Assembly: GCA_963664705.1 (NCBI GenBank)
Contig: OY761556.1
Span: 1,760,001 to 1,824,000, forward strand
Length of the DNA: 64,000 nt
Reading direction: 5' to 3'
From: Acidobacteriota bacterium
GTDB taxonomy: Bacteria > Acidobacteriota > UBA6911
Shown in pieces: positions 18,781 through 35,567 of this stretch; the stretch's first letter is position 1; every line of letters begins with the position of its first letter. The position numbers and the translations under genes were made by a program. A model generated the notes under the pieces. It made no database searches, had not been told where the DNA came from, and saw only the letters and a program-made list of their open reading frames with translations.

Positions 18781-18834
18781 AGACATCGGTTAGCGATAGC
18801 GAGTAGAAAACTGCTGATTTCCCAAGGGTTGAAT

Positions 18835-19329: not shown

Positions 19330-20621
19330 ATGAGGTGCTGATCGGTTGTGTCGGGCTTGGAGCCTTGCTGGTTCTTTTCCTGACGGGAATTGAGCTGGCC
19401 TTTGCCATGACATTCATTGGTTTTGCCGGTTTTGCCTGTTTGCGTTCATTTTCGGCAGCGGTCGACCTGTTGGCCAAGGATTTCTTTGACGCGTTTGCTT
19501 CCTACACTTTTGTTGTCATCCCGCTTTTTGTTTTGATGGGGCAGGTTGCCTACAATTCGGGAATTGCCGAAAAAATGTACGGGACATCCCGGAAATTCAT
19601 TGGTCACGTTCCGGGCGGACTGGCGCTGGCAACAGTCGTGGGCGCCACGATTTTCAAGGCGATCTCCGGGTCCAGCCTTGCCACGGCTGCAACGTTTTCC
19701 AGCGTCGCCATTCCTGAAATGGATAAATGCGGTTACAGCCGACGGCTTTCAACGGGTGTGGTTGCAAGCACCGGGACGCTTGGCATTCTGATCCCACCAA
19801 GTGGAACGCTTATTATCCTGGCCATGATCACGGATCAATCTATAGGGAAGCTGTTTTTGGCAGGAATCATTCCGGGACTTCTGATTGCAGTTCTCTTTCT
19901 CATCACCATCGTGTCGTGGTGCGGAATCAATCCTTCGCTTGCGCCTCGCGGAATTGCATCGAACTGGCGTGAGAGAGTTCACTCCATACCGATGATTTTC
20001 TGGCCGCTATTGATTTTTGGCGTGACTGTCGGGGGATTGCTCGGCGGCATTTTTACTCCGACAGAAGCCGGCAGCGTAGGCGCCATTTCCGTTTTGGTCC
20101 TGACATTCCTGAAGCGCGATCTTCACTCCGAAGGGTTCAAAAAATCAATTCGGGAATCTTTGCGCATGGGATGCATGGTTTTGTTGCTCATCGGCGGATC
20201 TGCGGTCCTCGGGCATTTTGTTGTGGTTTCAAAAATTCCGAGTGTCGTGGCGAACTGGACGCTGAGCCTCTCGCTGCCTTCATCGATAATCATGATCGTG
20301 ATTTTGCTGATCTACCTGATTGGTGGGTCCTTTGTGGATGATATGGCGTTCATGATTCTGGCTACTCCTATATTCTTCCCGGTTGCCCTGAAATTGGGAT
20401 ATGACCCCATCTGGTTCTGCATTGTCATCGGGGTAACGATGATGATTGGCGTTATTACGCCCCCCGTAGCCGTGGCCGCATTTATTGTTCGAAATATTAC
20501 CCGTGAACCGATCGGACAAATTTATCGAGGCGTATTGCCGTTCCTGATAACGATGGTTCTTTGCCTGTTGCTTCTTTTTCTATTTCCGCAAATTGCAACT
20601 TATCTCCCAAAGCGGTTCTAA
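19326..20621 (+). CDS. dctM: TRAP transporter large permease
   Basis: IPLFVLMG, SGSSLAT, GTLGILIPPS, FTPTEAG, DPIWF, ITPPV. Confidence 0.93.
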   Translation: MNEVLIGCVGLGALLVLFLTGIELAFAMTFIGFAGFACLRSFSAAVDLLAKDFFDAFASYTFVVIPLFVLMGQVAYNSGIAEKMYGTSRKFIGHVPGGLALATVVGATIFKAISGSSLATAATFSSVAIPEMDKCGYSRRLSTGVVASTGTLGILIPPSGTLIILAMITDQSIGKLFLAGIIPGLLIAVLFLITIVSWCGINPSLAPRGIASNWRERVHSIPMIFWPLLIFGVTVGGLLGGIFTPTEAGSVGAISVLVLTFLKRDLHSEGFKKSIRESLRMGCMVLLLIGGSAVLGHFVVVSKIPSVVANWTLSLSLPSSIIMIVILLIYLIGGSFVDDMAFMILATPIFFPVALKLGYDPIWFCIVIGVTMMIGVITPPVAVAAFIVRNITREPIGQIYRGVLPFLITMVLCLLLLFLFPQIATYLPKRF

Positions 20622-20902: not shown

Positions 20903-21664
20903 ATGCCAAGTGAATACCAAGGCAAGGTTGTTCTGGTAACTGGAGGGGCCTATGGCATTGGCAGGGCCGCTGCCATAGGGTTTGCGCTGAGGGGTGCCAA
21001 GGTGGTGATTGCAGACCGCGATGCGAAGCGAGGGGAAGAAACAGTGCAGCAGGTTAAGGATGCCGGTGGCGATGCCCTGTTTGTTCGAACCGATGTTTCG
21101 TCTGAAACGGATGTCGAAGCGCTTGTAAAGAAAACGGTCGAAACTTACGGAAAGCTCGATTGCGCATTCAATAATGCCGGGATCCATAAACAGTTTGTGT
21201 CTACGGTTGATTTCAAATCCGCTGATTGGGATGAGATGATCAACATCAACTTGAAGAGCGTGTGGCTTTGCATGAAATACGAGATCGCGCAGATGCTCAA
21301 GCAAGGCAAAGGCTCGATCGTCAACACCTCCTCCGCTGCAGGTTTGGTAGGTGCTCCAAGCAATCCTGCATATCCGGCCAGTAAACATGGTGTGGTTGGA
21401 ATCACCAAGTCCACAGCGCTTGAGTTTGCGCGTAAGGGAATCAGGGTGAACTGTGTCTGTCCTGGGCCGACCCGAACCGGTATGAATGAGGAGCTGGTGG
21501 CCACGAATCCTGAGATTGTCAAGGCAATGGACCAGAAGGTTCCCATGGGAAGGATTGGGGAGCCGGAGGAGGTGGCTGCCGCGGCCATTTTCCTATGTTC
21601 CGATGAAGCCTCTTACATAACGGGGCACGCATTGCCGGTCGACGGCGGCATTGTCGCGGATTGA
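20903..21664 (+). CDS. Short-chain dehydrogenase/reductase
   Basis: TGGAYGIG, LDCAFNNAG, YPASKHG, VDGG. Start at MPSEYQ after RBS ggag. Confidence 0.92.
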   Translation: MPSEYQGKVVLVTGGAYGIGRAAAIGFALRGAKVVIADRDAKRGEETVQQVKDAGGDALFVRTDVSSETDVEALVKKTVETYGKLDCAFNNAGIHKQFVSTVDFKSADWDEMININLKSVWLCMKYEIAQMLKQGKGSIVNTSSAAGLVGAPSNPAYPASKHGVVGITKSTALEFARKGIRVNCVCPGPTRTGMNEELVATNPEIVKAMDQKVPMGRIGEPEEVAAAAIFLCSDEASYITGHALPVDGGIVAD

Positions 21665-21835: not shown

Positions 21836-23314
21836 ATGAGTGCAGAATACAGAGTGTTAATTGATGGCGAATTGTGTGAATCGTCGACCAAGGAGACGAT
21901 GGAGGTAATCAATCCTGCCAATGGAAAGGTTGTGGGACTGGCGCCAAAATGCAGTTCCATCGAGATCGACAGAGCTGCCGAAGCCGCGCATAGGGCTGCG
22001 CCTGAATGGGCGGAAAAATCGCCAACCGAAAAGGCCGCCATATTCTTTAAGATGGCGGAGCTTTTGCGCAAAAATCGGGAGGAATGGGCGCGGCTGGAGA
22101 CAATGCAGTATGGCGGTCCTATTTTCAAAACATACAATTTCGATATGCGTTTCGATGCAGAGCATTTCGAATTCATGGCCGGCGTGGCCAGGGCTGTGAC
22201 TGGAAAGACTCTGCCGGTCGGGCCGCAAGCCATGTCGATGACTCTCCGCCAGCCCCTGGGCGTGGTCGGCTTAATTACTCCCTGGAATTTCCCCCTTGTT
22301 ACGGCCATATCCAAAATAACGCCCGCATTGATGATGGGGAATACGGCTGTGGTAAAACCGCCTTCCTGTGCGCCGCTGACGGTGCTCAAACTGGGTGAGG
22401 TTGCCATGGAGGCCGGGATCCCACCGGGAGTTCTCAACATTGTTACCGGACCCGGATCAACGGTGGGTGAGGCTTTGGTCAAACACCCCTATGTTGCCAA
22501 GGTCAATTTCACAGGCGACTCGGAAACAGGAAAACGTATTCTTGCCCTTGCAAGCGCCGCGGTCAAGCCGGTGGCATGCGAACTGGGCGGGAAGAACGCC
22601 TTTATCGTAATGCCGGATGCGGATATGAAGGCCGCAGTCGAAGGTGCTATCTGGGGCGGCTTTTTTAACTCGGGTCAGAATTGCGGCGCTTCCAGCCGAT
22701 ATCTGATTCACGAATCGATTTACGATGAATTTGTGGAGAAGTTTGTGGCAGCGGCGAAACTTCTGCGCGTTGGGGATCCTCTGAATCCGGAAACCATGAT
22801 CGGCCCGGTTGCCTACAAGGGACACCGGGATTCAATCGAACGATTCGTGGAGCGCGCAAAGAGGTCCAAGTGCAAGCTTCTGCTGGGTGGTGAACGCCCG
22901 AATACACCGGATACCAAGGATGGCTGTTTTGTCACCCCTACCATTTTTGGCGACTGTGATCCAAAGTCGGAAATAATGCAGGAAGAGGTATTCGGCCCCG
23001 TTGTTGCAGTGGCGCGGTTCAAAACGGCCGAGGAAGCTGTCGAGATTGCAAACGATTCCCGTTTCGGGCTGTGCGCTTCAATCTGGACAAAGGATATACG
23101 GCAGGGTCTCGTGATGACCAAGCAACTCAAGGTGGGGACCGTCTGGTTGAACCAGCACCTGTCAATCGTATTTGAGTGTCCCTGGGGTGGCTGTAAAGAG
23201 TCCGGACATAGCAAGGAAAATTCAATTATGGTTTTGGACGAATACAGCATGATGAAGAATGTATGGATTGATCTGGTGGGTACGCCGGCAACACCATGGC
23301 AGGGCCGCTTTTAG
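21836..23314 (+). CDS. NAD(P)-dependent aldehyde dehydrogenase (second copy)
   Basis: PWNFP, FTGD, ELGGKN, GQNC, EEVFGP. Confidence 0.93.
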   Translation: MSAEYRVLIDGELCESSTKETMEVINPANGKVVGLAPKCSSIEIDRAAEAAHRAAPEWAEKSPTEKAAIFFKMAELLRKNREEWARLETMQYGGPIFKTYNFDMRFDAEHFEFMAGVARAVTGKTLPVGPQAMSMTLRQPLGVVGLITPWNFPLVTAISKITPALMMGNTAVVKPPSCAPLTVLKLGEVAMEAGIPPGVLNIVTGPGSTVGEALVKHPYVAKVNFTGDSETGKRILALASAAVKPVACELGGKNAFIVMPDADMKAAVEGAIWGGFFNSGQNCGASSRYLIHESIYDEFVEKFVAAAKLLRVGDPLNPETMIGPVAYKGHRDSIERFVERAKRSKCKLLLGGERPNTPDTKDGCFVTPTIFGDCDPKSEIMQEEVFGPVVAVARFKTAEEAVEIANDSRFGLCASIWTKDIRQGLVMTKQLKVGTVWLNQHLSIVFECPWGGCKESGHSKENSIMVLDEYSMMKNVWIDLVGTPATPWQGRF

Positions 23315-23328
23315 CTAATCGATGGATA

Positions 23329-23367
23329 AAAGACCGATGCCGCTTTATCCAATCGGCATCGGTCTTT
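23329..23367 (+). terminator. Hairpin/terminator after the second ALDH
   Basis: 14-bp stem aaagaccgatgccg/cggcatcggtcttt. Confidence 0.65.
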
Positions 23368-23438: not shown

Positions 23439-25145
23439 ATGAGCGTGCCTAAAAAGCAGGGGAAGTTGCTTTCGCTTCAGGAAGCGATACGACAATACGT
23501 CCAGCCTGGAATGAAATTGCATCTTGCCGGCGGTATCGGTGGACCCAGCGCGGCTATTTGCGAAATCATTAGGCAATATTGGGGCCGGAATCCTGACTTC
23601 ACGCTAATTCAAGCAACAGTTACCGGTCTGGCGCTTAACCTGGTTCACGGCAAATTGGCCAAAAAGCTGATCTGTTCGGTTTGTGCGGAAATCTCAGGAT
23701 CGGGACGGCCGAGCAAAGTCATCCAGGCTGCCTATGAAAGCAAGAAGATTGAGCTCGAAAACTGGTCCCTGCTTTCGCTGCAACAGCGATTGATGGCGGG
23801 TGCTTTCGGCGTTCCATTCATGCCGACCAAATCTGTTTTGAATAGCAGTATTGCCAGCGATAACCCGACTACCTTCAAGACAATGGAAGATCCTTTCGGC
23901 TCCGGAGAGAAGGTCGGACTGGTAGGCGCGCTGGTCCCGGATCTGTCAATTGTGCACGGGTGCGTTGCCGATGTGGACGGTAATGTCATTCTGCAAGCTC
24001 CCTATGGTGAAGATCTATGGGGTGCCCTGGCAAGCAAAGGCGGGGTCCTTGTCACCGTCGAAAAGGTGGTCTCCAAGGATTTCATCAAGAGGTATAACGC
24101 CTTGGTTAAGATACCCGCCTATGCGGTCAAGGCTGTTGTGCCTGCCCCGTTGGGGCTTCATCCCTATTCGCTTACGAATCCCGGCATTTCCGATTTCGAT
24201 CCCTATGAAAAGGATGTGGATTTTCTGAACGTGCTTTTTGAGGCCGGGAGCACTGCCCATGCATTGGAAGGCTGGGTTAAGGAATGGATTCTGCAGTGCG
24301 AAAGCCATGAGGAATATTTGGGCAAGCTTGGCGATCAAAGGGTTGCCGACCTCAAGGGGCGATCAAGACGAGTGCTTGGGGAAATAGCGATGCCTTCGGT
24401 TTCACCCGATCCGGGCAGTGCAGAATACGATCCCAAGGAAATGATGCTGGTGGCGCTGGCCCGTGAGATCCTGCGCAGTGTTGAAGCGAACGAGCATAAA
24501 TTGATATTGGCCGGGGCAGGTGCCGGCGCGACAGCGGCATTTCTGGCCTATTACCGGCTCAAGTCTTCCGGTTTTGAACTGGGTACCGGAAACGGACAAA
24601 TTGGTTATACCCCTGTTCCGGGGGAATCGATTCTTGCAAGCGAGGCCGGTGTCCGAAGTTCCAAAATGCTGACCGATACGATCATGATGCAGGGCGTGTT
24701 TGTCGGAGGTGGCAACAATCGATGCCTGAGTATTCTCGGCGCGGGACAAATGGATAAGCACGGCAATATCAACTCCACCAAGACATCCAAAGGAAAGTTT
24801 CTTGTGGGTTCCGGAGGCGCCAATGATGCGCTGAATGCGTGCGAAACCATCCTCTGCCTGGACCAATCCAAAGACCGTTTTGTCGACAAGCTTGCCTATG
24901 TTACGGGCGTTGGCCATTCGGTAACGACGGTTGTATCAACAATGGGAATCTTCAGGAAAGAGCATCCGAAGGATGACCTCAAGCTCGTCGCCTGTTTTCC
25001 TGACACGCACGGCAAGAGCCTGGAGGATAGAATTAAAGACATTCGGATGCATTGTGGATGGGATCTGAAAGTGGCAGCCGGCGTTGAAGAAGTGCCCAAG
25101 CCTGGTTTGGAGGAACTGCAGCTGCTGCGCTGGATCAAAACATAA
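23439..25145 (+). CDS. Fused alpha+beta family-I CoA-transferase-fold protein (GctAB-like)
   Basis: N-half: RLMAGAFGVPFMP, PDLSIVH, DVDGN, TVEKVV. C-half: LGAGQMDKHGNIN, GSGGAND, VVSTMG. Confidence 0.85.
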   Translation: MSVPKKQGKLLSLQEAIRQYVQPGMKLHLAGGIGGPSAAICEIIRQYWGRNPDFTLIQATVTGLALNLVHGKLAKKLICSVCAEISGSGRPSKVIQAAYESKKIELENWSLLSLQQRLMAGAFGVPFMPTKSVLNSSIASDNPTTFKTMEDPFGSGEKVGLVGALVPDLSIVHGCVADVDGNVILQAPYGEDLWGALASKGGVLVTVEKVVSKDFIKRYNALVKIPAYAVKAVVPAPLGLHPYSLTNPGISDFDPYEKDVDFLNVLFEAGSTAHALEGWVKEWILQCESHEEYLGKLGDQRVADLKGRSRRVLGEIAMPSVSPDPGSAEYDPKEMMLVALAREILRSVEANEHKLILAGAGAGATAAFLAYYRLKSSGFELGTGNGQIGYTPVPGESILASEAGVRSSKMLTDTIMMQGVFVGGGNNRCLSILGAGQMDKHGNINSTKTSKGKFLVGSGGANDALNACETILCLDQSKDRFVDKLAYVTGVGHSVTTVVSTMGIFRKEHPKDDLKLVACFPDTHGKSLEDRIKDIRMHCGWDLKVAAGVEEVPKPGLEELQLLRWIKT

Positions 25146-25240: not shown

Positions 25241-26467
25241 ATGAGTGGTGGACCGCTTCAAGGTATAAGAGTTGTTGAATGTGCAGGCTATCTCAGCGCT
25301 CCTACAGCCTGTTATATGCTCGGGGATCTGGGCGCAGAAATCATCAAGATCGAGGATAGGGAAAAGGGCGATCCATCACGGGGAACCTCCGCGGTTTTCG
25401 GTTCATCCATGACATTGCCAAACGGTGAAAATATCCTGTTTGAGACTGCCAACAGAAATAAGAAGAGCATTACGCTTGATCTGAAAAAACAAAAGGGAAA
25501 AGAGCTTTTGTATGAGCTGGTTTCCAAAGCCGATATTTTTTGCACCAACTTTACCCAGTCTGCCATAAAGAAACTCGAAATCGATTTTGATACGTTGAAA
25601 AAATACAATCCCAAGCTGGTCTATGGCCTCGCGACAGGGTATGGGCTGCAGGGCCCAGAAAGCAACCGGCGCGCATTTGACAGCGTTGCTCAAGCGCGTT
25701 CAGGCATCATGTATGCGCTTGGAGGTGAGCCGGATTCGCCCCCGGCGCAGATTGGCGGTCCGGTATTCGATCAAATGACCGGCACGCTCCTGGTATACGG
25801 CATTCTGGCTGCTCTTGTTGCCCGGGATCAAAAGGGGATTGGGCAGCAGGTCGAGGTGTCGCTGCTGGGGTCAGGCATTCATTTGCAGGCGTATAATCTG
25901 AATACTGCGCTTTTGCGCGGGCGCCAGATTCCAAGACCTTCGCGACGCTCCCTGAAAAATCCAATGGCAAATCACTTTGAATGCGCAGACGGAGAATGGC
26001 TCCTGCTCTCTGAGCCTCAGGCCGATAGATTCTGGCCGGCGTTTTGCGATGCGTTGGATATCCAGCATCTTGAAAAGGATGAGAAGTATTCCGATGCTGC
26101 CCGAAGACGTGAGAACTTCAGAGAATTGCTCGTCATTATTGAGGGTGTGTTCAAGACAAGAAAGCGCGAAGAGTGGATGAAGATTTTGGATGAAAAGGGA
26201 GCCGGGATTGCCTATTCACCGGTTCTGCGACCGACGGATCTGGCTAATGATGATCAGGCATTGGCGAACGGCTACGTTGCACAAATCGAGCATCCATCAT
26301 TGGGATCCATCAAGATGGTGGGAAATCCCGTGAGTTTCACCGGAACACCCATTACTGTCGATGGGTTCGCACCTTGTTTCGGTCAGAATACGGAAGAGGT
26401 GCTGCTGGATATCTGTGGATACGATTGGGACAAGATACAGCAACTGAAGGATGAAGAAGTGATCTAG
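25241..26467 (+). CDS. Family-III (CaiB/BaiF) CoA transferase with catalytic Asp
   Basis: DLGAEIIKIE, NRNKKSITLDLK, PVFDQMTG (Asp177), GQQVEVSL. Confidence 0.93.
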   Translation: MSGGPLQGIRVVECAGYLSAPTACYMLGDLGAEIIKIEDREKGDPSRGTSAVFGSSMTLPNGENILFETANRNKKSITLDLKKQKGKELLYELVSKADIFCTNFTQSAIKKLEIDFDTLKKYNPKLVYGLATGYGLQGPESNRRAFDSVAQARSGIMYALGGEPDSPPAQIGGPVFDQMTGTLLVYGILAALVARDQKGIGQQVEVSLLGSGIHLQAYNLNTALLRGRQIPRPSRRSLKNPMANHFECADGEWLLLSEPQADRFWPAFCDALDIQHLEKDEKYSDAARRRENFRELLVIIEGVFKTRKREEWMKILDEKGAGIAYSPVLRPTDLANDDQALANGYVAQIEHPSLGSIKMVGNPVSFTGTPITVDGFAPCFGQNTEEVLLDICGYDWDKIQQLKDEEVI

Positions 26468-26544: not shown

Positions 26545-28008
26545 ATGCAGACGAAACTTACAAACAAGAGGCTGGATGAGCAAGAGTTTTTAAAAATGCG
26601 CAGCGCGGTCCTGGCACTTTGGCCGACAGGGCGTGAAGTGGACCTCGATGAAGCCATCGAATACCAGAAGAAGTTGCCGGATTCCAAAAACTGGCACAAG
26701 GTCGGACTCAAGCTTCGTAGCGATGGTCGCACCGCTATATTCCCGCGCGCGGGTACCGGACTTCTTGAGGATCAGATCAGTCTTTCCAAAAAGCTGGAGC
26801 AGTCGGGAGTCCCTTTTATCCCGGTTACCACGGATAGCTATACGCGTCAGCTGGACTTTGAAAAGGTGGATGGGCTTCTAGCCGAAATGCGCAAAACCGG
26901 CCGGAATCTGCTGAACGGATATCCAATCATCAACTACGGCGTCAAGCAGACGAGAAAGATCATTGAAAGCGTTGAACAGGGGGCCTTTAATCCAAGGCTT
27001 TCACTCAAATCCTATCCGCTCGCAACTGAGATTTCTTTTGCCGCAGGGATGACCGGCATCGCAGCCTCTTCATTCATCTCCTGGGCTGCCTATGAAAAGG
27101 ACGCTACGCTGGAGCAATCGATGGCCACCAATCAATACGTCCATCGACTCATTGGCTACTATGCGGACCGCGGGGTAATCATCTCGACCGATAATCATGG
27201 ATGGATTCTAACGGGGTTGCAGCCAATGACGGTTAACCTGGCCACAACCATTGTAGATGCCATCATGGTGGCGGAACAGGGAGGCAAAAGCATCACTTCG
27301 GTAGTGCACCTGATGGGAAACATGGCTCAGGATCTTGCATGGATGCGCGTTACGCCAAAACTGATGCGTGAGTATTTGGATAAGCTCGGATATAAGGATG
27401 TCAGTATCCCGGCTGTATTTGCGCAGCATACACCGCTATTCCCCATGCCCCAGGGAATGGGTGGGGCGTTTGCCTTTCCGAATTATACCGCGGTGGTGGC
27501 GGCGCTTGGAAAAGCCGAGGCCGTTTCGGTGCGAACCATTGACGAAGCATTGGGAATTCCTACAGAGGAATCGCATGCTCTCAGCTATGAATCCACCAAC
27601 TGGTTGCTCAACGTAATCCGAGGCCAGAACTTTGAATTCAAATCGGCGGCGGTCGATGAAGAAGCTGCAATGGCTGAAATGGAAATCCGCGCCATTATGG
27701 ACAAACTGCTCGAGATCGGCGACGGCGATGTTGTTGTTGGATGTCTGAAGGGTGTTGAAGAAGGAATTATCGATTCATGCTTCAGTCCGAACCGCCAGGT
27801 GAAGGACAAGGTAATTGGAGTCAAGGACGGCAAGGGCGCGATCCGATATCTCGATTGCGGAAACCTGCCGTTTCCGGAAGAGGTTAAAAAATTTAACAGG
27901 GATAAGATCGCCGAGAGAGAGAGAGCTGAAGGCAGAAAGATGGACTACGATGTCATCGTTCAGGACTTCTGGGCATTCAGTAAAGGTCAGCTGACTGGCA
28001 AAGCGTAG
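26545..28008 (+). CDS. Glutamate/methylaspartate mutase E-subunit homolog with a divergent active site
   Basis: WPTGREVD, PRAG, DSYTRQ, LLNGYP, AEQG, GNMAQD, EALGIPT, GAIRYLDCGNLP match GlmE/MutE across the full length. Confidence 0.9.
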   Translation: MQTKLTNKRLDEQEFLKMRSAVLALWPTGREVDLDEAIEYQKKLPDSKNWHKVGLKLRSDGRTAIFPRAGTGLLEDQISLSKKLEQSGVPFIPVTTDSYTRQLDFEKVDGLLAEMRKTGRNLLNGYPIINYGVKQTRKIIESVEQGAFNPRLSLKSYPLATEISFAAGMTGIAASSFISWAAYEKDATLEQSMATNQYVHRLIGYYADRGVIISTDNHGWILTGLQPMTVNLATTIVDAIMVAEQGGKSITSVVHLMGNMAQDLAWMRVTPKLMREYLDKLGYKDVSIPAVFAQHTPLFPMPQGMGGAFAFPNYTAVVAALGKAEAVSVRTIDEALGIPTEESHALSYESTNWLLNVIRGQNFEFKSAAVDEEAAMAEMEIRAIMDKLLEIGDGDVVVGCLKGVEEGIIDSCFSPNRQVKDKVIGVKDGKGAIRYLDCGNLPFPEEVKKFNRDKIAERERAEGRKMDYDVIVQDFWAFSKGQLTGKA

Positions 28009-28102
28009 ATCTGATTCCAGTTCGGATTTCCGGGTTCGAATCGCGTGTCAAACTTGCCGGGAACCCAGCACTGGGAACAGGGAACTCAAGGAGATTGGAA
28101 AG

Positions 28103-28525
28103 ATGAGTCAACCAACCGTAATTACTGGAACTGTGGGCAAAGATGCTCATGTCATTGGAACGAAAATTCTGTCCCGGGCGCTTCGTGATGCGGGTTTCAA
28201 CGTTGTGGAACTGGGGATTCTGACACCACCGGAAGAATTTGTAAAAGCGGCGCTTGACAACAAGGCGGATGCGATCCTGATGAGTTCCTTGTATGGAATG
28301 GGAGAGCATGATGTGCAGGGCTTCAAAGAGAAGTGCATCAGCGCCGGGTTGCAGGATGTGATCCTTTACATTGGTGGGAACCTGGGTGTGGGTAAACATG
28401 ATTTCAAAGATGACGAAGTGAAGTTTAAAAAACTCGGCTTCGACCGTGTTTATCCGCCCGCATCGGATGTAAAGACGGCAATCGCGGATCTTTGGGGCGA
28501 TCTAAAAGCCAAAGGGAAAGCATAG
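28103..28525 (+). CDS. Glutamate mutase S-type cobalamin-binding subunit
   Basis: DAHVIG (DxHxxG base-off/His-on motif), SSLYG, YIGGN, GFDRVY. Confidence 0.92.
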   Translation: MSQPTVITGTVGKDAHVIGTKILSRALRDAGFNVVELGILTPPEEFVKAALDNKADAILMSSLYGMGEHDVQGFKEKCISAGLQDVILYIGGNLGVGKHDFKDDEVKFKKLGFDRVYPPASDVKTAIADLWGDLKAKGKA

Positions 28526-28530
28526 GATTT

Positions 28531-29775
28531 ATGTTGCGCAACAGAATGCTGGCCGGATACCGGGCTTTGGATCTTACGGATGAAAAAGGATTTTTGTGTG
28601 GAAAGATCCTGTCGGAACTCGGTGTGGATGTGATCAAGGTGGAAAAGCCGGGAGGAGATGATGCTCGAAAGGTTGGGCCCTTCTGGCATGATCAGGCCGA
28701 TCCCGAAAAAAGCCTGTATTGGTTCTCTTACAACAGCAGCAAGCGCGGAATTACGCTCGATATCCGGACGGAACGTGGTAAGGAGCTCTTCCGAGAGCTG
28801 ATTAAGACCGCCGATTTCGTCATCGAATCCTTTGCCCCCGGTGAATTCGACCGAATGGGGTTCGGCTATGGAGAACTGTGTAATATCAGGAAGGATATCA
28901 TTCTGACTTCGATCACCGCATTTGGGCAGAAGGGACCTTATAGCCAATATCAGGCTTCTGATCTGGTGATCATGGGTATGGCGGGCGAACTTTTTTTGAC
29001 CGGGGACTCTGATCGGCGACCGGTGAACATCAGTTTGCCTCAAGCATGTCTCCATGCCGGCGCGGATGCCGCCGTTGGATCCATGCTGGCGCACCATCAT
29101 CGGAGGAAATCGGGCGAAGGACAGCACGTGGACGTCTCCCTGCAGCAAAGCGCTGCCTGGTTCCTGGCTCAGACCGTGCCGCACTGGGAGTTGGATAATC
29201 TTATTTTGGGGCGGGTAGGAACTTTTCGAACCAGCAGTCGAGGCACGCTCCAGCGGCAGGTATGGCCGTGCAAGGACGGTTATATTTTCTTTTTCATGAT
29301 CGGCGGGCAGCAAGGCGCAAAGACATGCCGAAACCTTGTGAAATGGATGGTCGAGGAGGGCATGCCCAACGAATTTCTGCAGGCCTATGAGTGGGAACGG
29401 TTCGATATGGCCAGCGCTACGCAGGATCTGATCGATACGATCTCGGGTCCGATCGCTGAATTTTTCAGGACGAGGACGAAGAAGGAAGCTCTGGATGCGG
29501 CAATGTCCCGGAACATCTCGATATGTCCTCTGATGGGCATGCAGGACTTGCTTGTTGATCCCAATCTGACGGCCAGAGATTTCTGGCTTCCAATGGAGCA
29601 TCCCGAACTGAATGCAACCATTCCTTATCCGAGACAGTTTGCAAGATCGTCCGAAAACGAGATGACGACCAAATCACGTGCGCCGCTTATCGGGGAGCAT
29701 AATTCCGAAATTTACGGCGAGCTTGGTTTATCGAGTGACAGTATCGCGGAGCTGAAAAAATCCGGGGTGATCTAA
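28531..29775 (+). CDS. Family-III CoA transferase, BbsE-like subunit lacking the catalytic Asp
   Basis: LDLTDEKGFLCGK, VIKVEKPGGD, KRGITLD; QACLHAG where active members have Asp. Confidence 0.88.
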   Translation: MLRNRMLAGYRALDLTDEKGFLCGKILSELGVDVIKVEKPGGDDARKVGPFWHDQADPEKSLYWFSYNSSKRGITLDIRTERGKELFRELIKTADFVIESFAPGEFDRMGFGYGELCNIRKDIILTSITAFGQKGPYSQYQASDLVIMGMAGELFLTGDSDRRPVNISLPQACLHAGADAAVGSMLAHHHRRKSGEGQHVDVSLQQSAAWFLAQTVPHWELDNLILGRVGTFRTSSRGTLQRQVWPCKDGYIFFFMIGGQQGAKTCRNLVKWMVEEGMPNEFLQAYEWERFDMASATQDLIDTISGPIAEFFRTRTKKEALDAAMSRNISICPLMGMQDLLVDPNLTARDFWLPMEHPELNATIPYPRQFARSSENEMTTKSRAPLIGEHNSEIYGELGLSSDSIAELKKSGVI

Positions 29776-29807: not shown

Positions 29808-31898
29808 ATGAATCCAATGTACGAAAAAATCCTCGAACCCGGCCGCATCGGGTCCGTAACGACGCGAAATCGAATCGTCAAATCCGGTGCCGGAATGCTC
29901 ATGTGGCATGAAGCGGATGTCCATATGCGTCCCGAAGTTCTGGCCTTCTATGAGGGGATTGCGAGAGGGGGCGTCGGATTATTGATCGTTGAATCGCCTA
30001 CGATCGACTACCCGCGAGGCGTGCGCTGGAAGGAACGGTATCGCATTGACGAGGACAAATATATCCAGGGGCTCAGCGAACTGGTCCAAATCATTCATAA
30101 GCACGGTTGCCCGACGTTTATGCAGATGAACCATGACGGGCCCTGGCAAGTCAAACTTCCTTTTGCCCCCGATCCTATGTATGACGGCCCGCCGATCGGA
30201 GCATCCGCAGTCAGTTTTAAGGCCGAGGCAGACTTCCATGAAGAAGTTCCCCACCCGCTGACGGTAGAGGAAATACAGGAGATCGTCGACAAATTTGCCA
30301 GCGCTGCCCTTAGAGCGCGACAGGCGGGGTTCGATGGCGTGGACATCAATGCTGCCAGCAGCCATCTTCTGCACAATTTCTTCTCGCCGTTCTGGAACAA
30401 ACGCGAAGACGCTTATGGCGGAAGCCCGGAGAATCGTGCCCGCTTTGCCATGGAAGTAATCCAGGCGGTCAAAAAGAAGGCCGGGAGTGATTTCCCTGTA
30501 TCGATCATTCTCAATGGTGTCGAAATCGGCGCGGGGATCGGAGTGCCGAACAGTCAGTGCCTGACACATGCGGATGCGCGCGAAATCGCCAAGTGCCTGC
30601 AGAAGGCGGGAGCCGATGCCATTCAGGTGCGCAGCCATTTCCTGGGCTATCACGTGGGTGCCTATCTGCCGGATGCGCTTTTTTATCCCGATGCGCCGAT
30701 ACCATTGGAGGATTTTCCAAAGGAATACAACACCAGTGATCGTGGCGTCGGATCGAATATCATTGCCGCTGCCGGAATCAAGAGCGTGGTTTCGATACCG
30801 GTTACAGTGGTTGGCAAGCTCGATGCCAATCTGGGAGAACAGCTGATCCGGGAAGGCAAGGTGGACTTCATCGCGATGACCCGCCGGCTGCTTGCTGATC
30901 CGGATTATCCAAAAAAGATCGCCGAAGGACGAGTCGACGACATTCAGCCATGCACTGGATGTGACAACTGCCTTGGGAGCAAGCGCTGCCGCATTAACGG
31001 GCTCTTAGGGACTGCCTACAACACAATCGAGAAATCTCCAAAAAAGAAAAAGGTCCTGGTCATCGGCGGAGGGCCCGGTGGAATGTCCGCAGCCAGAGTA
31101 TCTGCCATGCGTGGGCATGACGTAACATTGTTCGAAAGATCCTCTATGCTGGGGGGACTTCTGCCTCTTGCCGCCATTGTCAAAGGCAACCGACCGGAAG
31201 ATCTCACTTTGATTATCAACTATTTTACGCGGCAGCTTTCAAAGCTTGGCGTGAAGGTGGAACTGGGGAAAGAGGCCGATCTGTCTGTGGTTGACCGGAT
31301 CAAGCCGGACGTCGTTTTCCTGGCAACGGGCGGAACCTCCACCGTGCCGAAGATTCCGGGAATTGATAAGCCGAATGTTGTCAGTGGGGCGGCACTGCAT
31401 AGCCGATTGAAACTCGCGCTGAAGTTTTTTAAACCGGACACGCTGAGGAATCTGACCAAATACTACATGCCTATGGGCAAGCGGGTGATTGTCATCGGCG
31501 GAGCTATCCAGGGTTGCGAGCTTGCCGAGTTTCTGACAAAACGGGGGAGAAAGGTCACCGTTGTGGAAACCGGCAATGCAATTGGCGATGGCATGGTAGA
31601 TGCCTTGCTGGCCAACCTGCTTATCTGGTTCCGCAAAAAAGGTGTCCCTCTGATCAGCGGGGTGAAGGAATATGTCGAAATTACCGAAAAGGGACTGACC
31701 ATTATCACGCAGGACGGTGCTAGGCAAACCATTGAAGCGGACAGCATTGTGACCGCGCTGCCACTGACTCCGAACGACGAGTTGTTGGAGAAACTCAAAA
31801 CGAGGGTTGCTGAAGTCTATGCTATCGGGGATTGCCGGCAGCCGCAGCTCATTGCAGATGCTATCGGAACCGGATTGCGCACCGCCCGGGAGATTTAG
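29808..31898 (+). CDS. Old-yellow-enzyme/FadH-type FMN-[4Fe-4S]-FAD oxidoreductase (enoate/enoyl-CoA reductase-like)
   Basis: RNRIVK, RARGG-like IARGG, AGFDGV, YGGSPENR, CTGCDNC...C cluster, GGGPGG, LATG, AIGD. Start could be 29802. Confidence 0.9.
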   Translation: MNPMYEKILEPGRIGSVTTRNRIVKSGAGMLMWHEADVHMRPEVLAFYEGIARGGVGLLIVESPTIDYPRGVRWKERYRIDEDKYIQGLSELVQIIHKHGCPTFMQMNHDGPWQVKLPFAPDPMYDGPPIGASAVSFKAEADFHEEVPHPLTVEEIQEIVDKFASAALRARQAGFDGVDINAASSHLLHNFFSPFWNKREDAYGGSPENRARFAMEVIQAVKKKAGSDFPVSIILNGVEIGAGIGVPNSQCLTHADAREIAKCLQKAGADAIQVRSHFLGYHVGAYLPDALFYPDAPIPLEDFPKEYNTSDRGVGSNIIAAAGIKSVVSIPVTVVGKLDANLGEQLIREGKVDFIAMTRRLLADPDYPKKIAEGRVDDIQPCTGCDNCLGSKRCRINGLLGTAYNTIEKSPKKKKVLVIGGGPGGMSAARVSAMRGHDVTLFERSSMLGGLLPLAAIVKGNRPEDLTLIINYFTRQLSKLGVKVELGKEADLSVVDRIKPDVVFLATGGTSTVPKIPGIDKPNVVSGAALHSRLKLALKFFKPDTLRNLTKYYMPMGKRVIVIGGAIQGCELAEFLTKRGRKVTVVETGNAIGDGMVDALLANLLIWFRKKGVPLISGVKEYVEITEKGLTIITQDGARQTIEADSIVTALPLTPNDELLEKLKTRVAEVYAIGDCRQPQLIADAIGTGLRTAREI

Positions 31899-31910
31899 GG
31901 ATTGAAGATT

Positions 31911-31941
31911 TCAACTTCCGACACTCAAACTCGGAAGTTGA
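31911..31941 (+). other. Intra-operon hairpin just upstream of the RBS of the next CoA transferase
   Basis: 11-bp stem tcaacttccga/tcggaagttga; aaggag follows at about 31947. Confidence 0.55.
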
Positions 31942-31956
31942 GATTAAAGGAGATCA

Positions 31957-33174
31957 ATGAACAAGGGAGTTTTTGAGGATCTCAAGATCGCCGCGTTCAA
32001 CTGGGCGATGGTGGGTCCGCTGACTTTGAAATTCTTTGCGGACTATGGAGCAACGGTCGTTCGCGTCGAAACGAGCCTTCGTCCCTGCGTCACGCGCACG
32101 TCCGCACCCTTCAAGGATAATGTTTCCGGCATCAACCGGAGTGGCTATTTCAACCACTTCAGTGCCAACATGATGAGCCTGTCTTTGAACATGAACAACC
32201 CCGCCGGTATGGAGGTTGCGAAGGAGCTGATCGGCTGGGCGGATGTTGTCATGGAAAACTTCACTCCCGGGGTTATGGATAAATGGGGACTTGGGTACGA
32301 GGCCCTGACCAGAATCAATCCGAGAATAATTATGGTGCGGCAGAACGGGTTCGGAATCGAAGGACCCTATAAAAATCTGGCGGCATTTGGAATGATCCTC
32401 GCAGCTATTGCGGGAATTCCCCAATACATCGGCTGGCCGGATCGAGGCCCGCTTCCCGTTGGCGTTGGAGCCTATACGGACTGTATCAGCCCCCGTTTCG
32501 CATCTGCCGCATTGATCGCTGCCCTGGATTATCGCGACAGAACGGGCAAAGGGCAATTGATTGATCTGGCTCAATTTGAAACGGCGCTCTATTTTCTCAC
32601 GCCCGGCCTTTTGGACGCGGCCGTAAACAAGCGGGAACCGGCCCGAAACGGCAATGCGGTTGCCGACGCCTCTCCGCATAACGTGTATTCCTGCCAGGGA
32701 AAGGAACGATGGTGCACGATTGCGGTAAGTACCGAGGAGCAGTGGAAAGCTCTATGTCATGTGATGGGTAAGGATGCGCTGGCAACGGATCCACGATTCG
32801 CTACCCTGGCTCAAAGAAAGCAGAATGAGGCTGCCCTGGACCTGCTGCTCGAATCCTGGACATCGGAAAAAACACCCGAAGAAGTGATGACCCTATTGCA
32901 GGTGGCCGGAGTACCCGCGGGGATCGTTGAAAACTCCGCCGACCTGTTTGAAGACCCGCAATTGCGCGCGCGCGGGCTCTTCTGGCCAATGGAACATAGT
33001 GAAATCGGCACCTTTACGCATTTGGGCTCCAGCATGGTCCTATCAAAAACGCCGGCGACCGCTTCGACGGCGAGTCCGTGCATAGGCGAACATAACGAGT
33101 ATGTGCTGACAAAGCTTTTAGGAAAAACGGATGAACAGTTTGTGGAATTGCTTGCCGCAGGCGCACTTGAATAA
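31957..33174 (+). CDS. Family-III CoA transferase, BbsF-like catalytic subunit
   Basis: FNWAMVGP, GATVVRVE, ENFTPGVM, GAYTDCISP (Asp175), TGKGQLID. Confidence 0.9.
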   Translation: MNKGVFEDLKIAAFNWAMVGPLTLKFFADYGATVVRVETSLRPCVTRTSAPFKDNVSGINRSGYFNHFSANMMSLSLNMNNPAGMEVAKELIGWADVVMENFTPGVMDKWGLGYEALTRINPRIIMVRQNGFGIEGPYKNLAAFGMILAAIAGIPQYIGWPDRGPLPVGVGAYTDCISPRFASAALIAALDYRDRTGKGQLIDLAQFETALYFLTPGLLDAAVNKREPARNGNAVADASPHNVYSCQGKERWCTIAVSTEEQWKALCHVMGKDALATDPRFATLAQRKQNEAALDLLLESWTSEKTPEEVMTLLQVAGVPAGIVENSADLFEDPQLRARGLFWPMEHSEIGTFTHLGSSMVLSKTPATASTASPCIGEHNEYVLTKLLGKTDEQFVELLAAGALE

Positions 33175-33192: not shown

Positions 33193-34071
33193 ATGGAACT
33201 AGAGTTCATAAAGTACGAAAAGGACGGACAGGTTGCGTTCATTACCTTAAACAGACCAGACAGGCTGAATGCCATTGGCCCGGAGATTTATCGTGACTGG
33301 ACGGCAGCCCTGGACGAGGCAGAACAGGACGATGATGTAAAGGTGATTGTTTTCAAAGGCGCCGGACGGGCTTTCAGCGCGGGAGCGGATCTGACGGGTG
33401 TCGGTTTTGTGTATGGGATGAAGGAACCGAAGCCGGGAGAAAAAACCAAACAGCGAATTCCACTGAGAGTCAAATTCGAATTCGACAGAAGAGTATTCCT
33501 GGATTTCCACCGACGGATCCTGTACTGCAAAAAGCTCACAATCGCACAGCTGCATACCTACTGCCTGGGCATTGCCTTTAATATTGTTTCCCATTGCGAC
33601 CTCATCATTGCAAGCGACGACTGCGAGATGGGGCATGTCGAAGAACGCCTGGGACAGGGGGGGATGACCCTTACTCCGATCATGATTCTACGCTGTGGCT
33701 TTACCAGAGCCATGGAGCTTTGCCTGACCGGCCGTCGTTTTAACGGCAAAAAGGCAGCCGAATATCAGTTGATCAATAAATCGGTTCCGGCCGACAAACT
33801 GGACGAAGAAGTGCGCAATCTGGCTTACGGCTTGTGCATGCATCCCAAGGATGGCATTTCTGTGGGCAAGGCTATGCGCGAAATGATCTACACGACCATG
33901 GGGATTGATCGCGGCCTGGTAGACCATTACATCATGCATACCGTTCAGACCAACCGCGTTCTGGATGAAGGCGAAATCAACTTTTTCAAGATGCGCCGCG
34001 ACAAGGGTGTGCGCGAGGCGGCTCACGAAAAGCACGACAAGTTCAAGATACTCGATGAATTCGATAGCTAG
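33193..34071 (+). CDS. Enoyl-CoA hydratase/isomerase (crotonase) family protein
   Basis: ITLNRPDRLNA, GAGRAFSAGADL, CDLIIAS, ELCLTGR. Confidence 0.9.
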   Translation: MELEFIKYEKDGQVAFITLNRPDRLNAIGPEIYRDWTAALDEAEQDDDVKVIVFKGAGRAFSAGADLTGVGFVYGMKEPKPGEKTKQRIPLRVKFEFDRRVFLDFHRRILYCKKLTIAQLHTYCLGIAFNIVSHCDLIIASDDCEMGHVEERLGQGGMTLTPIMILRCGFTRAMELCLTGRRFNGKKAAEYQLINKSVPADKLDEEVRNLAYGLCMHPKDGISVGKAMREMIYTTMGIDRGLVDHYIMHTVQTNRVLDEGEINFFKMRRDKGVREAAHEKHDKFKILDEFDS

Positions 34072-34196
34072 GAAGCAAGCCCGGCGCCTTCATTTATCGA
34101 TCTGTTCCGGGGTTCACATTTCTGATGTTTCGTTGCCTGCCTTGCGAAAGAAGGCAGGCAACGGGACATCGATCAGCCCGTTTCCGGAGTGCATAT

Positions 34197-35567
34197 ATGG
34201 ACGCTTCCGTTTCATTTGCCCAGGTATTCGAAAATACCCAGTACGAGGACCTGCCTTCAGAAGTCGTTGAAGCAACAAAGAAGGAAATCCTCGACCTTCT
34301 TGGAGTGGCTTTCGGAGGGGCAGCCCAGCCTGGTGCCACGCACGTCTGCGCGCTTATGAAGGAGTGGGGCGGCAAGGAGGAGAGCAGCCTTATCGGGAGC
34401 CAGCAGAAGCTGCCGGCACCCAGCGCCGCGCAAGTGAATGCCACAATGGCTCATTCCCTGGACTTTGATGATGTGCACGAGGCGGCCGTGATGCATCCGG
34501 GCATTGCCGCCATTCCGGTTGCTATGGCGGTGGGGGAGGCCCGGGGGAATTTGAGCGGCAGGGACATGATAACTGCTGTAGCGCTTGGCGTTGATATGAT
34601 GTGCCGCCTGGCGCTGGCGACCACTCCCGGAAAAAGCCCGGTGGAGCTGGGATGGCACTTGACCTCCGTGTTTGGTTTTATGGGAGCCGCCGCTACGGCT
34701 GCTCGCATCCTGGGTCTGAACGCAGAAAAAATCGTCGATGCCATCGGAATCGGGTACCACCAGAGCGGCGGGAATGGGCAATGCGTAAAAGATGGTGCCT
34801 TGACCAAGCGGCTTGGCCCCGGATTTGCGGTCAAGGGTGGCATCACCGCCGCGTACCTTGCCAAGGCCGGAGTCACAGGAGCCAGGAATTCGTTGGAAGG
34901 GGAGTGGGGATTTTACCGGCAGTATGCCCACGGAGACTATAGCCGTGAGACACTGGTAACCGATTTGGGAAGGCGATTTGAGGGCGTTAATGTCGCCATC
35001 AAGCCATACCCCTGCTGCCGAGGCGTTCATCCGGCGATTGACGCGGCATTGGCGCTGGTTTCGGAGGCGGGGATTCAGACCAGGGACATAAAGAGCATCG
35101 CTCTTTCCGTTACGGATTCGCATCTGGCGCTTCTTTGCAATCCTTTTGAATCCAAAAAATCCCCCAGAAGTCCGGTTGATGCACAATTCAGTATCCCCTG
35201 GGGCGTCGCAACGGCCTTCGTGAAGGGTAAGGTTGGATTGGACGACTATACCGACAACGCAATCCGAAACAGGGATGTCCTGGATATCACCGCGAAGATG
35301 AGCGTTGATGTGGATAACTCCCTTCACAGGCCCGGCCCTGAACCCACGCGCGTGAAGGTGACGACTACGGACGGGAGCGTACTGGCCAAGGTAGTGGACA
35401 GCCCTCTTGGCAGCCTTGAGCGACCAATGTCTTTCCATGACTGTGCGAACAAATTCCGGGATTGTTCCAAGGGCATGGACCCCGAGAGGATTGAATCCAT
35501 CATCACAAAGGTTGGAGAGCTGGAACAGTTGAGAAACATGCAGGAGCTGATCAGTCTTTTGAAATAA
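34197..35567 (+). CDS. MmgE/PrpD family protein
   Basis: LDFDDVH, HPG, GWHLT, LEGEWGF, KPYPCC, AQFSIP. Confidence 0.92.
   Translation: MDASVSFAQVFENTQYEDLPSEVVEATKKEILDLLGVAFGGAAQPGATHVCALMKEWGGKEESSLIGSQQKLPAPSAAQVNATMAHSLDFDDVHEAAVMHPGIAAIPVAMAVGEARGNLSGRDMITAVALGVDMMCRLALATTPGKSPVELGWHLTSVFGFMGAAATAARILGLNAEKIVDAIGIGYHQSGGNGQCVKDGALTKRLGPGFAVKGGITAAYLAKAGVTGARNSLEGEWGFYRQYAHGDYSRETLVTDLGRRFEGVNVAIKPYPCCRGVHPAIDAALALVSEAGIQTRDIKSIALSVTDSHLALLCNPFESKKSPRSPVDAQFSIPWGVATAFVKGKVGLDDYTDNAIRNRDVLDITAKMSVDVDNSLHRPGPEPTRVKVTTTDGSVLAKVVDSPLGSLERPMSFHDCANKFRDCSKGMDPERIESIITKVGELEQLRNMQELISLLK

What the first reader, a model, noticed from the sequence alone, without database searches (positions are those of the whole stretch)
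26545..28525. Glutamate-mutase-like AdoCbl enzyme with a rebuilt active site: likely new substrate
Compared with recalled clostridial GlmE. Kept: the carboxylate-binding arginine claw (PRAG for R66, YTRQ for R100, NPR for R149), Y181 (AAYEK) and E330 (DEALG). Changed: RHGTPD becomes RLSLKS; TSNEGGGISYNVPY becomes TGIAASSFISWAAY, so the amine-binding base E171 is Ala (codon 27061) and Y177 is Ser; REPFG becomes TDNHG; HQWMGGFP becomes AQHTPLFP. The S subunit keeps DxHxxG. Inference: an active radical mutase for a non-amino dicarboxylate (for example hydroxy-, oxo-, methylene- or otherwise substituted glutarate/succinate), which would be a new B12 carbon-skeleton rearrangement. Automatic annotation would call it methylaspartate mutase.
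Basis: partly seen in the sequence, partly recalled or inferred. Interest (0 to 1): 0.88.

Follow-up and report, generated by a model that had tools for sequence, protein, structure and literature searches.

The report
B12 mutase feeding benzylsuccinate-like pathway
These two genes encode an intact vitamin-B12 enzyme of the glutamate mutase family that has lost the residue that grips glutamate's amino group and sits among genes resembling benzylsuccinate breakdown, so it likely rearranges a different, possibly plant-aromatic, diacid in an undescribed anaerobic pathway.

Summary
Observation confirmed. The E subunit (26545-28008) folds like clostridial GlmE (TM 0.95). It keeps the arginine claw, Y181 and E330; E171 is Ala (codon 27061), Y177 Ser, F216 His. 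The S subunit keeps DxHxxG. These changes mark a well-supported clade under purifying selection: His at F216 in 296 of 296 rows, Glu171 in 1. Methylaspartate ammonia-lyase is missing from 30 of 30 genus genomes and present in 5 of 5 control genomes with canonical GlmE. Glutamate mutase function is therefore unlikely (~7%).

The conserved operon encodes proteins whose nearest solved relatives include both benzylsuccinate CoA-transferase subunits and BbsD, plus a PrpD-family succinate-backbone enzyme, a crotonase, reductases and aldehyde dehydrogenases. A sister branch pairs the mutase with an unclassified glycyl radical enzyme and includes the ferulate-using isolate Sporobacter termitidis.

Best guess (0.4): a glutarate-type ⇌ benzylsuccinate-type skeleton shift on an aryl diacid. 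Aliphatic diacids come next (0.3). No substrate is shown. The scan noted this family before on other genomes (7 notes). New variant of a known kind; interest 0.72.

The parts
26545..28008 (+). E subunit (GlmE-fold TIM barrel, 487 aa) of the putative AdoCbl mutase
26746..26997 (+). Arginine claw codons: R68 (26746), R101 (26845), R151 (26995) = GlmE R66/R100/R149
27061..27093 (+). Rebuilt beta-4 loop: A173 (GlmE E171), S179 (Y177), Y183 kept (Y181)
27190..27198 (+). Clade signature D216-x-H218 (GlmE E214, F216); candidate new acid/base pair (role inferred)
27532..27546 (+).
28103..28525 (+). S subunit, B12-binding Rossmann domain; DxHxxG starts at 28142 (D14, H16)
23439..25145 (+). Fused GctAB/AibAB/IpdAB-fold protein. 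N108 lies at the position of IpdA's catalytic Glu, and an invariant T-G-N-G lies where GctB has its catalytic Glu (both positions recalled; the GctB register was read by eye). Probably not a class I CoA-transferase
25241..26467 (+). Family III CoA-transferase CaiB1, catalytic-type Asp177 in 41 of 41 homologues
28531..29775 (+). CaiB2: best PDB hit benzylsuccinate CoA-transferase chain 9FN0_A (220 bits, next 148); no catalytic Asp (BbsE-like)
29808..31898 (+). OYE-family flavin/Fe-S oxidoreductase; best PDB hit NCR 6QKG (250 bits, next 173)
31957..33174 (+). CaiB3: best PDB hit 9FN0_B (270 bits, next 187); Asp175 in 26 of 26 (BbsF-like)
33193..34071 (+). Crotonase-family protein with one catalytic-position Glu (E150) and an invariant R152
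34197..35567 (+). MmgE/PrpD-family enzyme; keeps H86, D89, H100, H154, K204, K269 (17 of 17), lacks the second-base Tyr
35627..36472 (+). SDR2, carveol-dehydrogenase-like fold with YxxxK; not BbsC-like by fold search
14878..15696 (-). SDR0; best single-domain PDB hit BbsD 7PCS_B (194 bits, next 181); its orthologue ends the operon in relatives
16202..17665 (+). Aldehyde dehydrogenase ALDH1
17758..20621 (+). TRAP transporter DctP/Q/M; nearest solved binders 4N6D, 4NAP, 4PGN, 7NR2 (their aromatic-acid ligands are recalled)
20903..21664 (+). SDR1
21836..23314 (+). Aldehyde dehydrogenase ALDH2

Best explanation
The two genes encode an intact glutamate-mutase-fold B12 enzyme pair with a rebuilt amino-group pocket, which likely swaps a glutarate-type aryl diacid for a benzylsuccinate-type diacid that the neighbouring Bbs-like enzymes would then split into an aroyl unit and succinyl-CoA. 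Shown: fold, kept claw and cofactor motif, loss of E171, invariant D216/H218, conserved operon, absent ammonia-lyase. Inferred chemistry: AdoCbl binds His-on through S-subunit H16. The adenosyl radical takes an H from the carbon next to the carboxylate held by R101/Y183, and the other carboxylate-bearing fragment, held by R68/R151, moves one carbon. With 3-arylglutarate this would go by fragmentation to a cinnamate plus a carboxymethyl radical and give a benzylsuccinate. With 2-benzylideneglutarate it would go through a cyclopropylcarbinyl radical, as in methyleneglutarate mutase, and give a methyl-phenylitaconate; that variant would explain why no BbsG-type dehydrogenase is present. Neither route needs an amine base, which fits a small, variable residue at 171. 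H218 would take over substrate contact or partial protonation. Inferred downstream steps: CaiB2/3 transfers CoA from succinyl-CoA; the OYE and crotonase do redox and hydration; SDR0 oxidises the carbinol; the GctAB-fold protein or the crotonase would do the C-C cleavage in place of the thiolase; ALDH/AOR and CaiB1 deliver the aroyl acid or CoA ester to the host's benzoyl-CoA pathway; the PrpD protein would isomerise or dehydrate a free succinate-backbone intermediate.
For: Claw, Y181 and E330 kept; E171 lost in 295 of 296 clade rows and H218 present in 296 of 296 (rows include some duplicates). CaiB2 and CaiB3 each hit a different chain of benzylsuccinate CoA-transferase best, with clear margins. 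SDR0's best single-domain hit is BbsD. The Bbs steps are as described in PMC10818641 (passages). All characterised PrpD-family enzymes act on 1,4-dicarboxylate backbones (PMC12290011, passages), and the six binding residues are kept. In 31 loci of 15 kb or more: CoAT1, CaiB1, CaiB2 and CaiB3 each in 28, crotonase 27, PrpD 25, OYE or FAD reductase 21, ALDH or AOR 25, ammonia-lyase 0. The FAD neighbour in relatives scores best on vinylphenol reductase VprA (351-390 bits, next about 200, cut-off 600). The genome has Oah over its cut-off beside AOR-family and HdrA-like genes, read as a class II benzoyl-CoA reductase cluster. It also has an adenosyltransferase and methylmalonyl-CoA mutase. The sister clade includes Sporobacter termitidis (P0478), which uses ferulate and trimethoxycinnamate (PMC8143322, passage). 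Precedent for an aryl-diacid CoA mutase: IaaGH benzylmalonyl-CoA mutase (PMC8360864, passages); that its radical is benzylic is my inference.
Against: No substrate evidence of any direct kind. No acyl-CoA dehydrogenase (1 of 101 loci) or thiolase (0 of 101) is in the core. The thiolase and ACAD about 13-18 kb from the G794 mutase are not Bbs types (BbsB 198 vs cut-off 750). SDR2 is not BbsC-like. The BbsD margin is thin (194 vs 181 bits), and solved structures are biased towards aromatic degraders. Oah was not found in 6 of 22 genus genomes with this mutase, two of them 97-100% complete, nor in 3 of 3 with the glycyl-radical type, nor in 4 of 8 further genomes. GlmE's site is a tight cage (PMC9545868), and whether an aryl ring fits could not be modelled, as no coordinates were available. 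An unstabilised carboxymethyl radical is costly and a benzylic radical may be a trap (chemical reasoning). No common natural source of such a diacid is known to me (sphagnum acid, a 3-arylglutaconate, is recalled as one example). The Sporobacter enzyme is only 48% identical, with a different pocket, and I did not see its neighbours.
Confidence: 0.4

Rival explanations
1. Same kind of skeleton mutase, but for a small aliphatic non-amino diacid: a 2-hydroxy-, 2-oxo- or 2-methylene-glutarate, or a 3-substituted glutarate. His218-Asp216 would act as the base or proton donor. The PrpD protein would play the part of methylaspartate lyase by removing water from a methylmalate-type product, or the part of methylitaconate isomerase.
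For: The intact three-arginine cage suits a C5-C7 diacid. The PrpD protein is one-base, like dehydratases and decarboxylases. CaiB1 and CaiB3 score on succinate-glutarate and mesaconate CoA-transferase models below cut-off. The GctAB fold includes the 3-methylglutaconyl-CoA decarboxylase AibAB (second hit; function recalled). Oah is missing in some carriers.
Against: It does not explain why the nearest characterised relatives of five partners (BbsE, BbsF, BbsD, NCR, VprA) are enzymes for aromatic compounds. Several large pocket residues became small and variable, which suggests more room.
Confidence: 0.3
2. An AdoCbl radical enzyme that does not shift a carbon skeleton but eliminates water or another group, cleaves a C-C bond, or opens a ring in a diacid (for example a cyclobutane hydroxycinnamate dimer), giving an aldehyde or enoate for the ALDH/AOR and reductases.
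For: New invariant polar residues D216, H218 and, mostly, H255. Aldehyde-oxidising enzymes in 25 of 31 long loci. The sister clade sits with a glycyl radical enzyme, Fe-ADH and ALDHs.
Against: Known His-on DxHxxG enzymes with this barrel are mutases (fold hits; established knowledge). A GlmL reactivase lies beside it in 15 of 101 loci. The diacid claw is complete.
Confidence: 0.15
3. A true glutamate (methylaspartate) mutase in which His218 replaces E171 as the base, with methylaspartate handled by another route.
For: Claw, Y181 and E330 kept; TM 0.95. One clade member keeps Glu171 (L077). E171 mutants keep some activity (recalled; the papers were not held).
Against: E171, Y177, H150, F216, H291 and M294 all changed. 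Below the TIGR01503 cut-off. Ammonia-lyase in 0 of 30 genus genomes against 5 of 5 controls and 0 of 101 loci. No amino-acid enzymes in the operon.
Confidence: 0.07
4. A catalytically dead or purely structural GlmE homologue.
For: No GlmL in this genome.
Against: Strong purifying selection, invariant catalytic residues, S always adjacent or fused, GlmL kept in 15 loci, and an adenosyltransferase in the genome.
Confidence: 0.03

Closest known systems
Glutamate mutase GlmES/MutES (EC 5.4.99.1), Clostridium cochlearium; PDB 1CB7, 1CCW, 1I9C, 6H9E
   Same: Fold (TM 0.95, about 37-41% identity), separate E and S subunits, DxHxxG, R66/R100/R149 claw, G68, N123, Y181, E330; GlmL in some relatives.
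   Different: E171, Y177, H150, F216, H291, M294 and K326 changed; new D216/H218; gene order E-S(-L) rather than S-L-E; no methylaspartate ammonia-lyase; separate long-branch clade.
Benzylsuccinate beta-oxidation module BbsEF/G/H/CD/AB of toluene degraders (PMC10818641, passages)
   Same: BbsE-like plus BbsF-like transferase pair, a crotonase, and a BbsD-like SDR.
   Different: No benzylsuccinate synthase, BbsG or BbsAB in the operon; SDR2 is not BbsC-like; extra mutase, PrpD, GctAB-fold protein, OYE and ALDHs.
2-Methyleneglutarate mutase of nicotinate fermentation (Eubacterium barkeri; recalled)
   Same: AdoCbl mutase on a free non-amino C5-backbone diacid, followed by an isomerase/hydratase.
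   Different: Not a GlmE-family sequence (recalled; not compared here); no nicotinate genes seen in the loci.
IaaGH benzylmalonyl-CoA mutase with IaaL phenylsuccinyl-CoA transferase, anaerobic auxin degradation (PMC8360864, passages)
   Same: B12 mutase coupled to a family III transferase on an aryl diacid.
   Different: IaaGH acts on CoA thioesters; the query keeps three arginines that suit a free diacid; no IaaF, hydantoinase or Mo enzyme.
MmgE/PrpD family: methylsuccinate isomerase PA0881, IDS epimerase, cis-aconitate decarboxylase, 2-methylcitrate dehydratase (PMC12290011, passages)
   Same: The operon's PrpD protein keeps the six residues that bind a 1,4-dicarboxylate.
   Different: It lacks the Tyr of the two-base isomerases; its reaction is unknown.

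Membership tests
GlmE structural family (PF06368) | Pfam match over gathering score and TIM-barrel fold like GlmE | tested here: met
   422 bits vs 26.6; TM 0.95
His-on AdoCbl mutases | DxHxxG B12-binding subunit | tested here: met
   D14-A-H16-V-I-G; passes TIGR01501 and PRK02261
Glutamate mutase (EC 5.4.99.1) | TIGR01503 equivalog cut-off | tested here: not met
   369.9 vs 390.1 bits
Glutamate mutase (EC 5.4.99.1) | Arginine claw R66/R100/R149 | tested here: met
Glutamate mutase (EC 5.4.99.1) | Amine-binding E171 and Y177 | tested here: not met
   A173 and S179 in ungapped phmmer and hhalign registers; invariant E171 in 11 canonical sequences
Glutamate mutase (EC 5.4.99.1) | Methylaspartate ammonia-lyase partner in locus or genome | tested here: not met
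   0 of 30 genus genomes, control 5 of 5; 0 of 101 loci; only a 28.9-bit partial enolase-fold hit in G000
Glutamate mutase (EC 5.4.99.1) | Falls in the clade of E171-bearing GlmE | tested here: not met
   Own clade of 12 rows, SH-aLRT 100, stem 0.69 (quick IQ-TREE run)
Glutamate mutase (EC 5.4.99.1) | Glutamate/methylaspartate turnover | not testable with these tools
   needs enzyme assay
Bbs (benzylsuccinate beta-oxidation) operon | BbsEF-type heterodimeric CoA-transferase | tested here: inconclusive
   Best hits to both 9FN0 chains, Asp pattern fits; similarity is distant and specificity is untested
Bbs (benzylsuccinate beta-oxidation) operon | BbsG acyl-CoA dehydrogenase and BbsAB thiolase | tested here: not met
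   1 and 0 of 101 loci; G794 candidates are not Bbs types
Bbs (benzylsuccinate beta-oxidation) operon | BbsCD dehydrogenase pair | tested here: inconclusive
   SDR0 nearest to BbsD; SDR2 not near BbsC
2-Methyleneglutarate mutase | Sequence membership | not tested

The most novel reading that the evidence does not exclude
A new B12 radical carbon-skeleton rearrangement that converts lignin- or hydroxycinnamate-derived aryl-glutarates into benzylsuccinates. It would give anaerobes a second entry into benzylsuccinate-type degradation without fumarate addition. In a large clostridial sister branch the same mutase (E-S fused) would work with an undescribed class of glycyl radical enzyme that lacks the CxE motif, making a two-radical-enzyme pathway testable in the cultured Sporobacter termitidis.
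Probability: 0.3. Interest if true: 0.9.

Novelty: new variant of a known kind. Interest (0 to 1): 0.72.

Why it matters
Only a handful of B12 carbon-skeleton rearrangements are known, and glutamate mutase is the only solved, characterised member of its family found here. This clade is abundant: 120 or more proteins at 80% identity or above, and 25 of 30 genomes of the host genus. Most members are named methylaspartate mutase, which misleads pathway reconstruction. Its conserved partners give a short, testable substrate list and would define a new anaerobic catabolic route, probably for aromatic diacids. The wider family is a reservoir of new radical chemistry: of 113 full-length representatives at 50% identity, only 31 have Glu at 171.

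Tried and rejected
Register alternative (ISW aligned to ISY, making Y177 a Trp): not favoured by phmmer or hhalign; the glycyl-radical branch does have Trp in that column.
'Complete bbs set around the mutase in G794': rejected, its thiolase and ACAD are generic. SDR2 as BbsC: rejected.
Tannase or carboxylesterase neighbours as a substrate clue: rejected, the genome gives 13 and 16 tblastn hits to these families. HCHL assignment of the crotonase: not decisive (90 bits vs 107 for a generic hydratase).
Sphagnum acid as the substrate: kept only as an example; the paper search found no link to a mutase (listing only).
Expression: no RNA holder listed; this is no evidence either way, and no reads were laid. 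ESM Atlas: unavailable for P0001 and P0005. Promoter and terminator scan: no excess over shuffles. No complex prediction was run (E+S is a textbook pair).
The tree is the quick run, 38 rows after dropping 14 near-identical rows; L035 was labelled canonical by motif only, and its genome has no ammonia-lyase.
Not held: Marsh-lab papers on E171, E330/K326 and substrate analogues, the QM/MM paper, and the TRAP ligand survey. The Gruber 2022 supplement, with the substrate-contact figures, could not be read and may refine the pocket assignments.
Ten paper searches (listings only) showed no description of this clade; the library omits most subscription journals.
Full report
Observation. The region holds two ORFs on the + strand: E, 26545-28008 (487 aa), and S, 28103-28525 (140 aa). 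The only solved relatives of E are the C. cochlearium glutamate mutase chains, and its predicted structure (pLDDT 92.4, 40-sequence alignment) overlays them with TM 0.95. Counting along the alignment, E keeps R66, G68, T94, R100, N123, R149, Y181, F297, E330 and I334 of GlmE. It changes H150>L, E171>A, Y177>S, R213>T, E214>D, F216>H, G253>H, H291>A, M294>T and K326>R. A profile-profile alignment of 17 clade against 11 canonical sequences gives the same ungapped register through 171-181. Gruber et al. 2022 (PMC9545868; Introduction and part of Results read) assign R66, R149 and E171 to the glycyl fragment, R100 and Y177 to the acrylate, Y181 to the methylaspartyl radical, and G68 and N123 to adenosine. 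S carries D14-x-H16-x-x-G and passes TIGR01501, while E falls just under TIGR01503.

A conserved clade, not decay. The first homologue search found 946 proteins among 7995 scored; the best 120 are 80-95% identical, and all 120 share the query's residue at 26 of 27 checked positions. Against 10 orthologues pN is 0.08-0.12 and pS is saturated. A quick IQ-TREE run on 38 rows puts 12 clade members on a 0.69-long branch with SH-aLRT 100, apart from the E171-bearing GlmE. Over 296 clade rows (120 near homologues, 56 locus-derived, 120 from the sister branch; some duplicates), R68, R101, Y183, H218 and E334 are invariant, R151 is kept in 295, D216 in 290, and Glu at 171 occurs once. Position 171 varies among A, G, S and P, so it is an open wall and not a new catalytic residue. 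The new invariant feature is D216-x-H218. Family-wide, of 113 full-length representatives out of 150 listed, 31 have Glu171 and 54 the full claw, so this is one of many unstudied GlmE branches.

Host and distribution. The relatives named by title are Acidobacteriota (16 loci), Dehalococcoidia (4) and one Ramlibacter. In the host's family, 25 of 51 genomes match, all in its genus (25 of 30): 22 carry this type and 3 the sister type. In wider samples the clade was found in 3 of 401 phylum genomes, 4 of 401 Dehalococcoidia-class genomes and 1 of 401 genomes of the Ramlibacter's order. The host genome has one GlmE homologue, no GlmL and no ammonia-lyase. Ammonia-lyase is missing from 30 of 30 genus genomes but present in 5 of 5 genomes with canonical GlmE. 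The genome encodes a cobalamin adenosyltransferase and methylmalonyl-CoA mutase, so AdoCbl supply is plausible.

The operon. In the window the order is SDR0 (divergent), ALDH1, TRAP, SDR1, ALDH2, a GctAB-fold fusion, CaiB1, E, S, CaiB2, OYE, CaiB3, crotonase, PrpD, SDR2. The core order is kept across Acidobacteriota and largely in Dehalococcoidia. In 31 loci of 15 kb or more, out of 101, CoAT1, CaiB1, CaiB2 and CaiB3 each occur in 28, the crotonase in 27, PrpD in 25, an aldehyde-oxidising enzyme in 25, a flavin reductase in 21, GlmL in 7 and ammonia-lyase in 0. CaiB2 and CaiB3 match the two different chains of benzylsuccinate CoA-transferase best, with Asp absent and present as expected of BbsE and BbsF (the chain-to-name assignment is my inference). 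SDR0's best single-domain hit is BbsD, the OYE's is NCR, and the FAD neighbour in relatives scores best on vinylphenol reductase. DctP is nearest to binders recalled as carrying aromatic acids. The PrpD protein keeps the residues that bind a four-carbon 1,4-dicarboxylate but lacks the second-base Tyr (PMC12290011 passages). The GctAB-fold protein appears to lack the catalytic acids of GctB and IpdA (positions recalled). Against a plain Bbs reading: there is no BbsG or BbsAB, SDR2 is not BbsC-like, and Oah was found in 16 of 22 genus carriers but in 0 of 3 sister-type and 1 of 5 non-carriers.

A sister branch with a glycyl radical enzyme. At about 48-51% identity the mutase, often fused E-S, lies next to a glycyl radical enzyme and its activase, with ALDHs, Fe-ADH, SDR0, PrpD or an OYE. 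No family III transferase homologue was seen in these loci (L042, L184, L187/L188, L204, L205). This enzyme fits no NCBIfam class and has C-L-G where the six C-O eliminases have CxE (PMC13450708 passages). It has 263 homologues at E 1e-150 or better. Named carriers are mostly clostridial families, and one is Sporobacter termitidis DSM 10068. That isolate uses ferulate and makes acetate from trimethoxycinnamate (PMC8143322 passage; its narrow diet of methoxylated aromatics is recalled). Its pocket shares D216/H218 but has Pro at 171 and Trp at 177, so its substrate may differ.

Mechanism. Shown: fold, cofactor motif, claw, loss of the amine pocket, new His-Asp, operon, missing lyase. Inferred: a free diacid is clamped as in GlmE and isomerised between a glutarate and a substituted-succinate skeleton, since PrpD and BbsEF-type partners both act on succinate backbones. 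The aromatic leaning of five partners and the Sporobacter link make an aryl substituent the lead guess. The options are 3-arylglutarate to benzylsuccinate by fragmentation-recombination, or 2-benzylideneglutarate to methyl-phenylitaconate through a cyclopropylcarbinyl radical. CoA transfer, hydration, oxidation and cleavage to an aroyl unit plus (methyl)succinyl-CoA would follow. I put this at 0.4, an aliphatic hydroxy/oxo/methylene diacid at 0.3, non-skeleton radical chemistry at 0.15, glutamate at 0.07 and inactivity at 0.03. The chief doubts are the size of the cage, which could not be measured, the radical energetics, the missing dehydrogenase and thiolase, and the unknown natural source of the diacid.

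Comparison and novelty. It works like glutamate mutase and 2-methyleneglutarate mutase, and belongs to the GlmE structural family. It fails the defining tests of EC 5.4.99.1 (E171, equivalog cut-off, lyase partner, clade). Ten literature searches listed no study of this clade. The scan itself noted the family on seven other genomes; those notes are not independent support. Verdict: new variant of a known kind, likely a new B12 reaction, substrate unproven; interest 0.72.

Noticed in passing
L042:9677-12196, L184:3244-5751, L188:1345-3867: Unclassified glycyl radical enzyme family (Cys loop without CxE, Gly-rich following strand, several conserved Arg/Lys); 263 homologues at E<=1e-150; adjacent to the sister mutase, mostly in clostridial families.
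   Followed up: partly
P0123-P0272; G412, G438, G456, G445: The GlmE family is largely non-canonical: 82 of 113 full-length representatives lack Glu at 171, and several Dehalococcoidia-class genomes carry two or three divergent paralogues with different pockets.
   Followed up: partly
L077:9135-10592 (G794): Only clade member seen that keeps Glu at 171; no CoAT1 or close CaiB1 homologue in its locus.
   Followed up: partly
window 14776-14817, 23329-23367, 31908-31944, 34124-34170: Short inverted repeats (14-20 nt arms) fill four intergenic gaps of the cluster; a fifth lies inside SDR1; no shuffle control.
   Followed up: partly
window 10744-11571 and 37983-38876: Two likely secreted proteins with no Pfam match, giving 14 and 27 tblastn hits in the genome.
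   Followed up: no
window 48785-54566: Two PRK02399-family genes flank a pyruvate-carboxylase-B-like gene and a biotin carboxylase: an unexplained carboxylase module.
   Followed up: no
window 62272-63641: 3-oxoacid CoA-transferase A and B subunits, followed by an SDR fragment; a similar pair lies near the mutase cluster in L021 and L157.
   Followed up: no
G000:C1:3808000-3831000 (L202, L203): Cluster read as class II benzoyl-CoA reduction (Oah over cut-off, AOR-family and HdrA-like genes) in this acidobacterium; Oah found in 21 of 51 family genomes.
   Followed up: partly
L005, L017: Several operon genes are split by frameshifts in these assemblies, including E in L017; probably sequencing errors.
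   Followed up: no
L076:3494-3952, L011:20035-20460, L042:6275-6736: Small proteins with no Pfam match (cupin-like by eye) recur beside the cluster in both branches and have about ten relatives in G000.
   Followed up: no
window 12987-14762: Amidohydrolase_3 gene with a likely signal peptide, next to SDR0; a distant homologue is near the cluster in only one other locus (L150).
   Followed up: no
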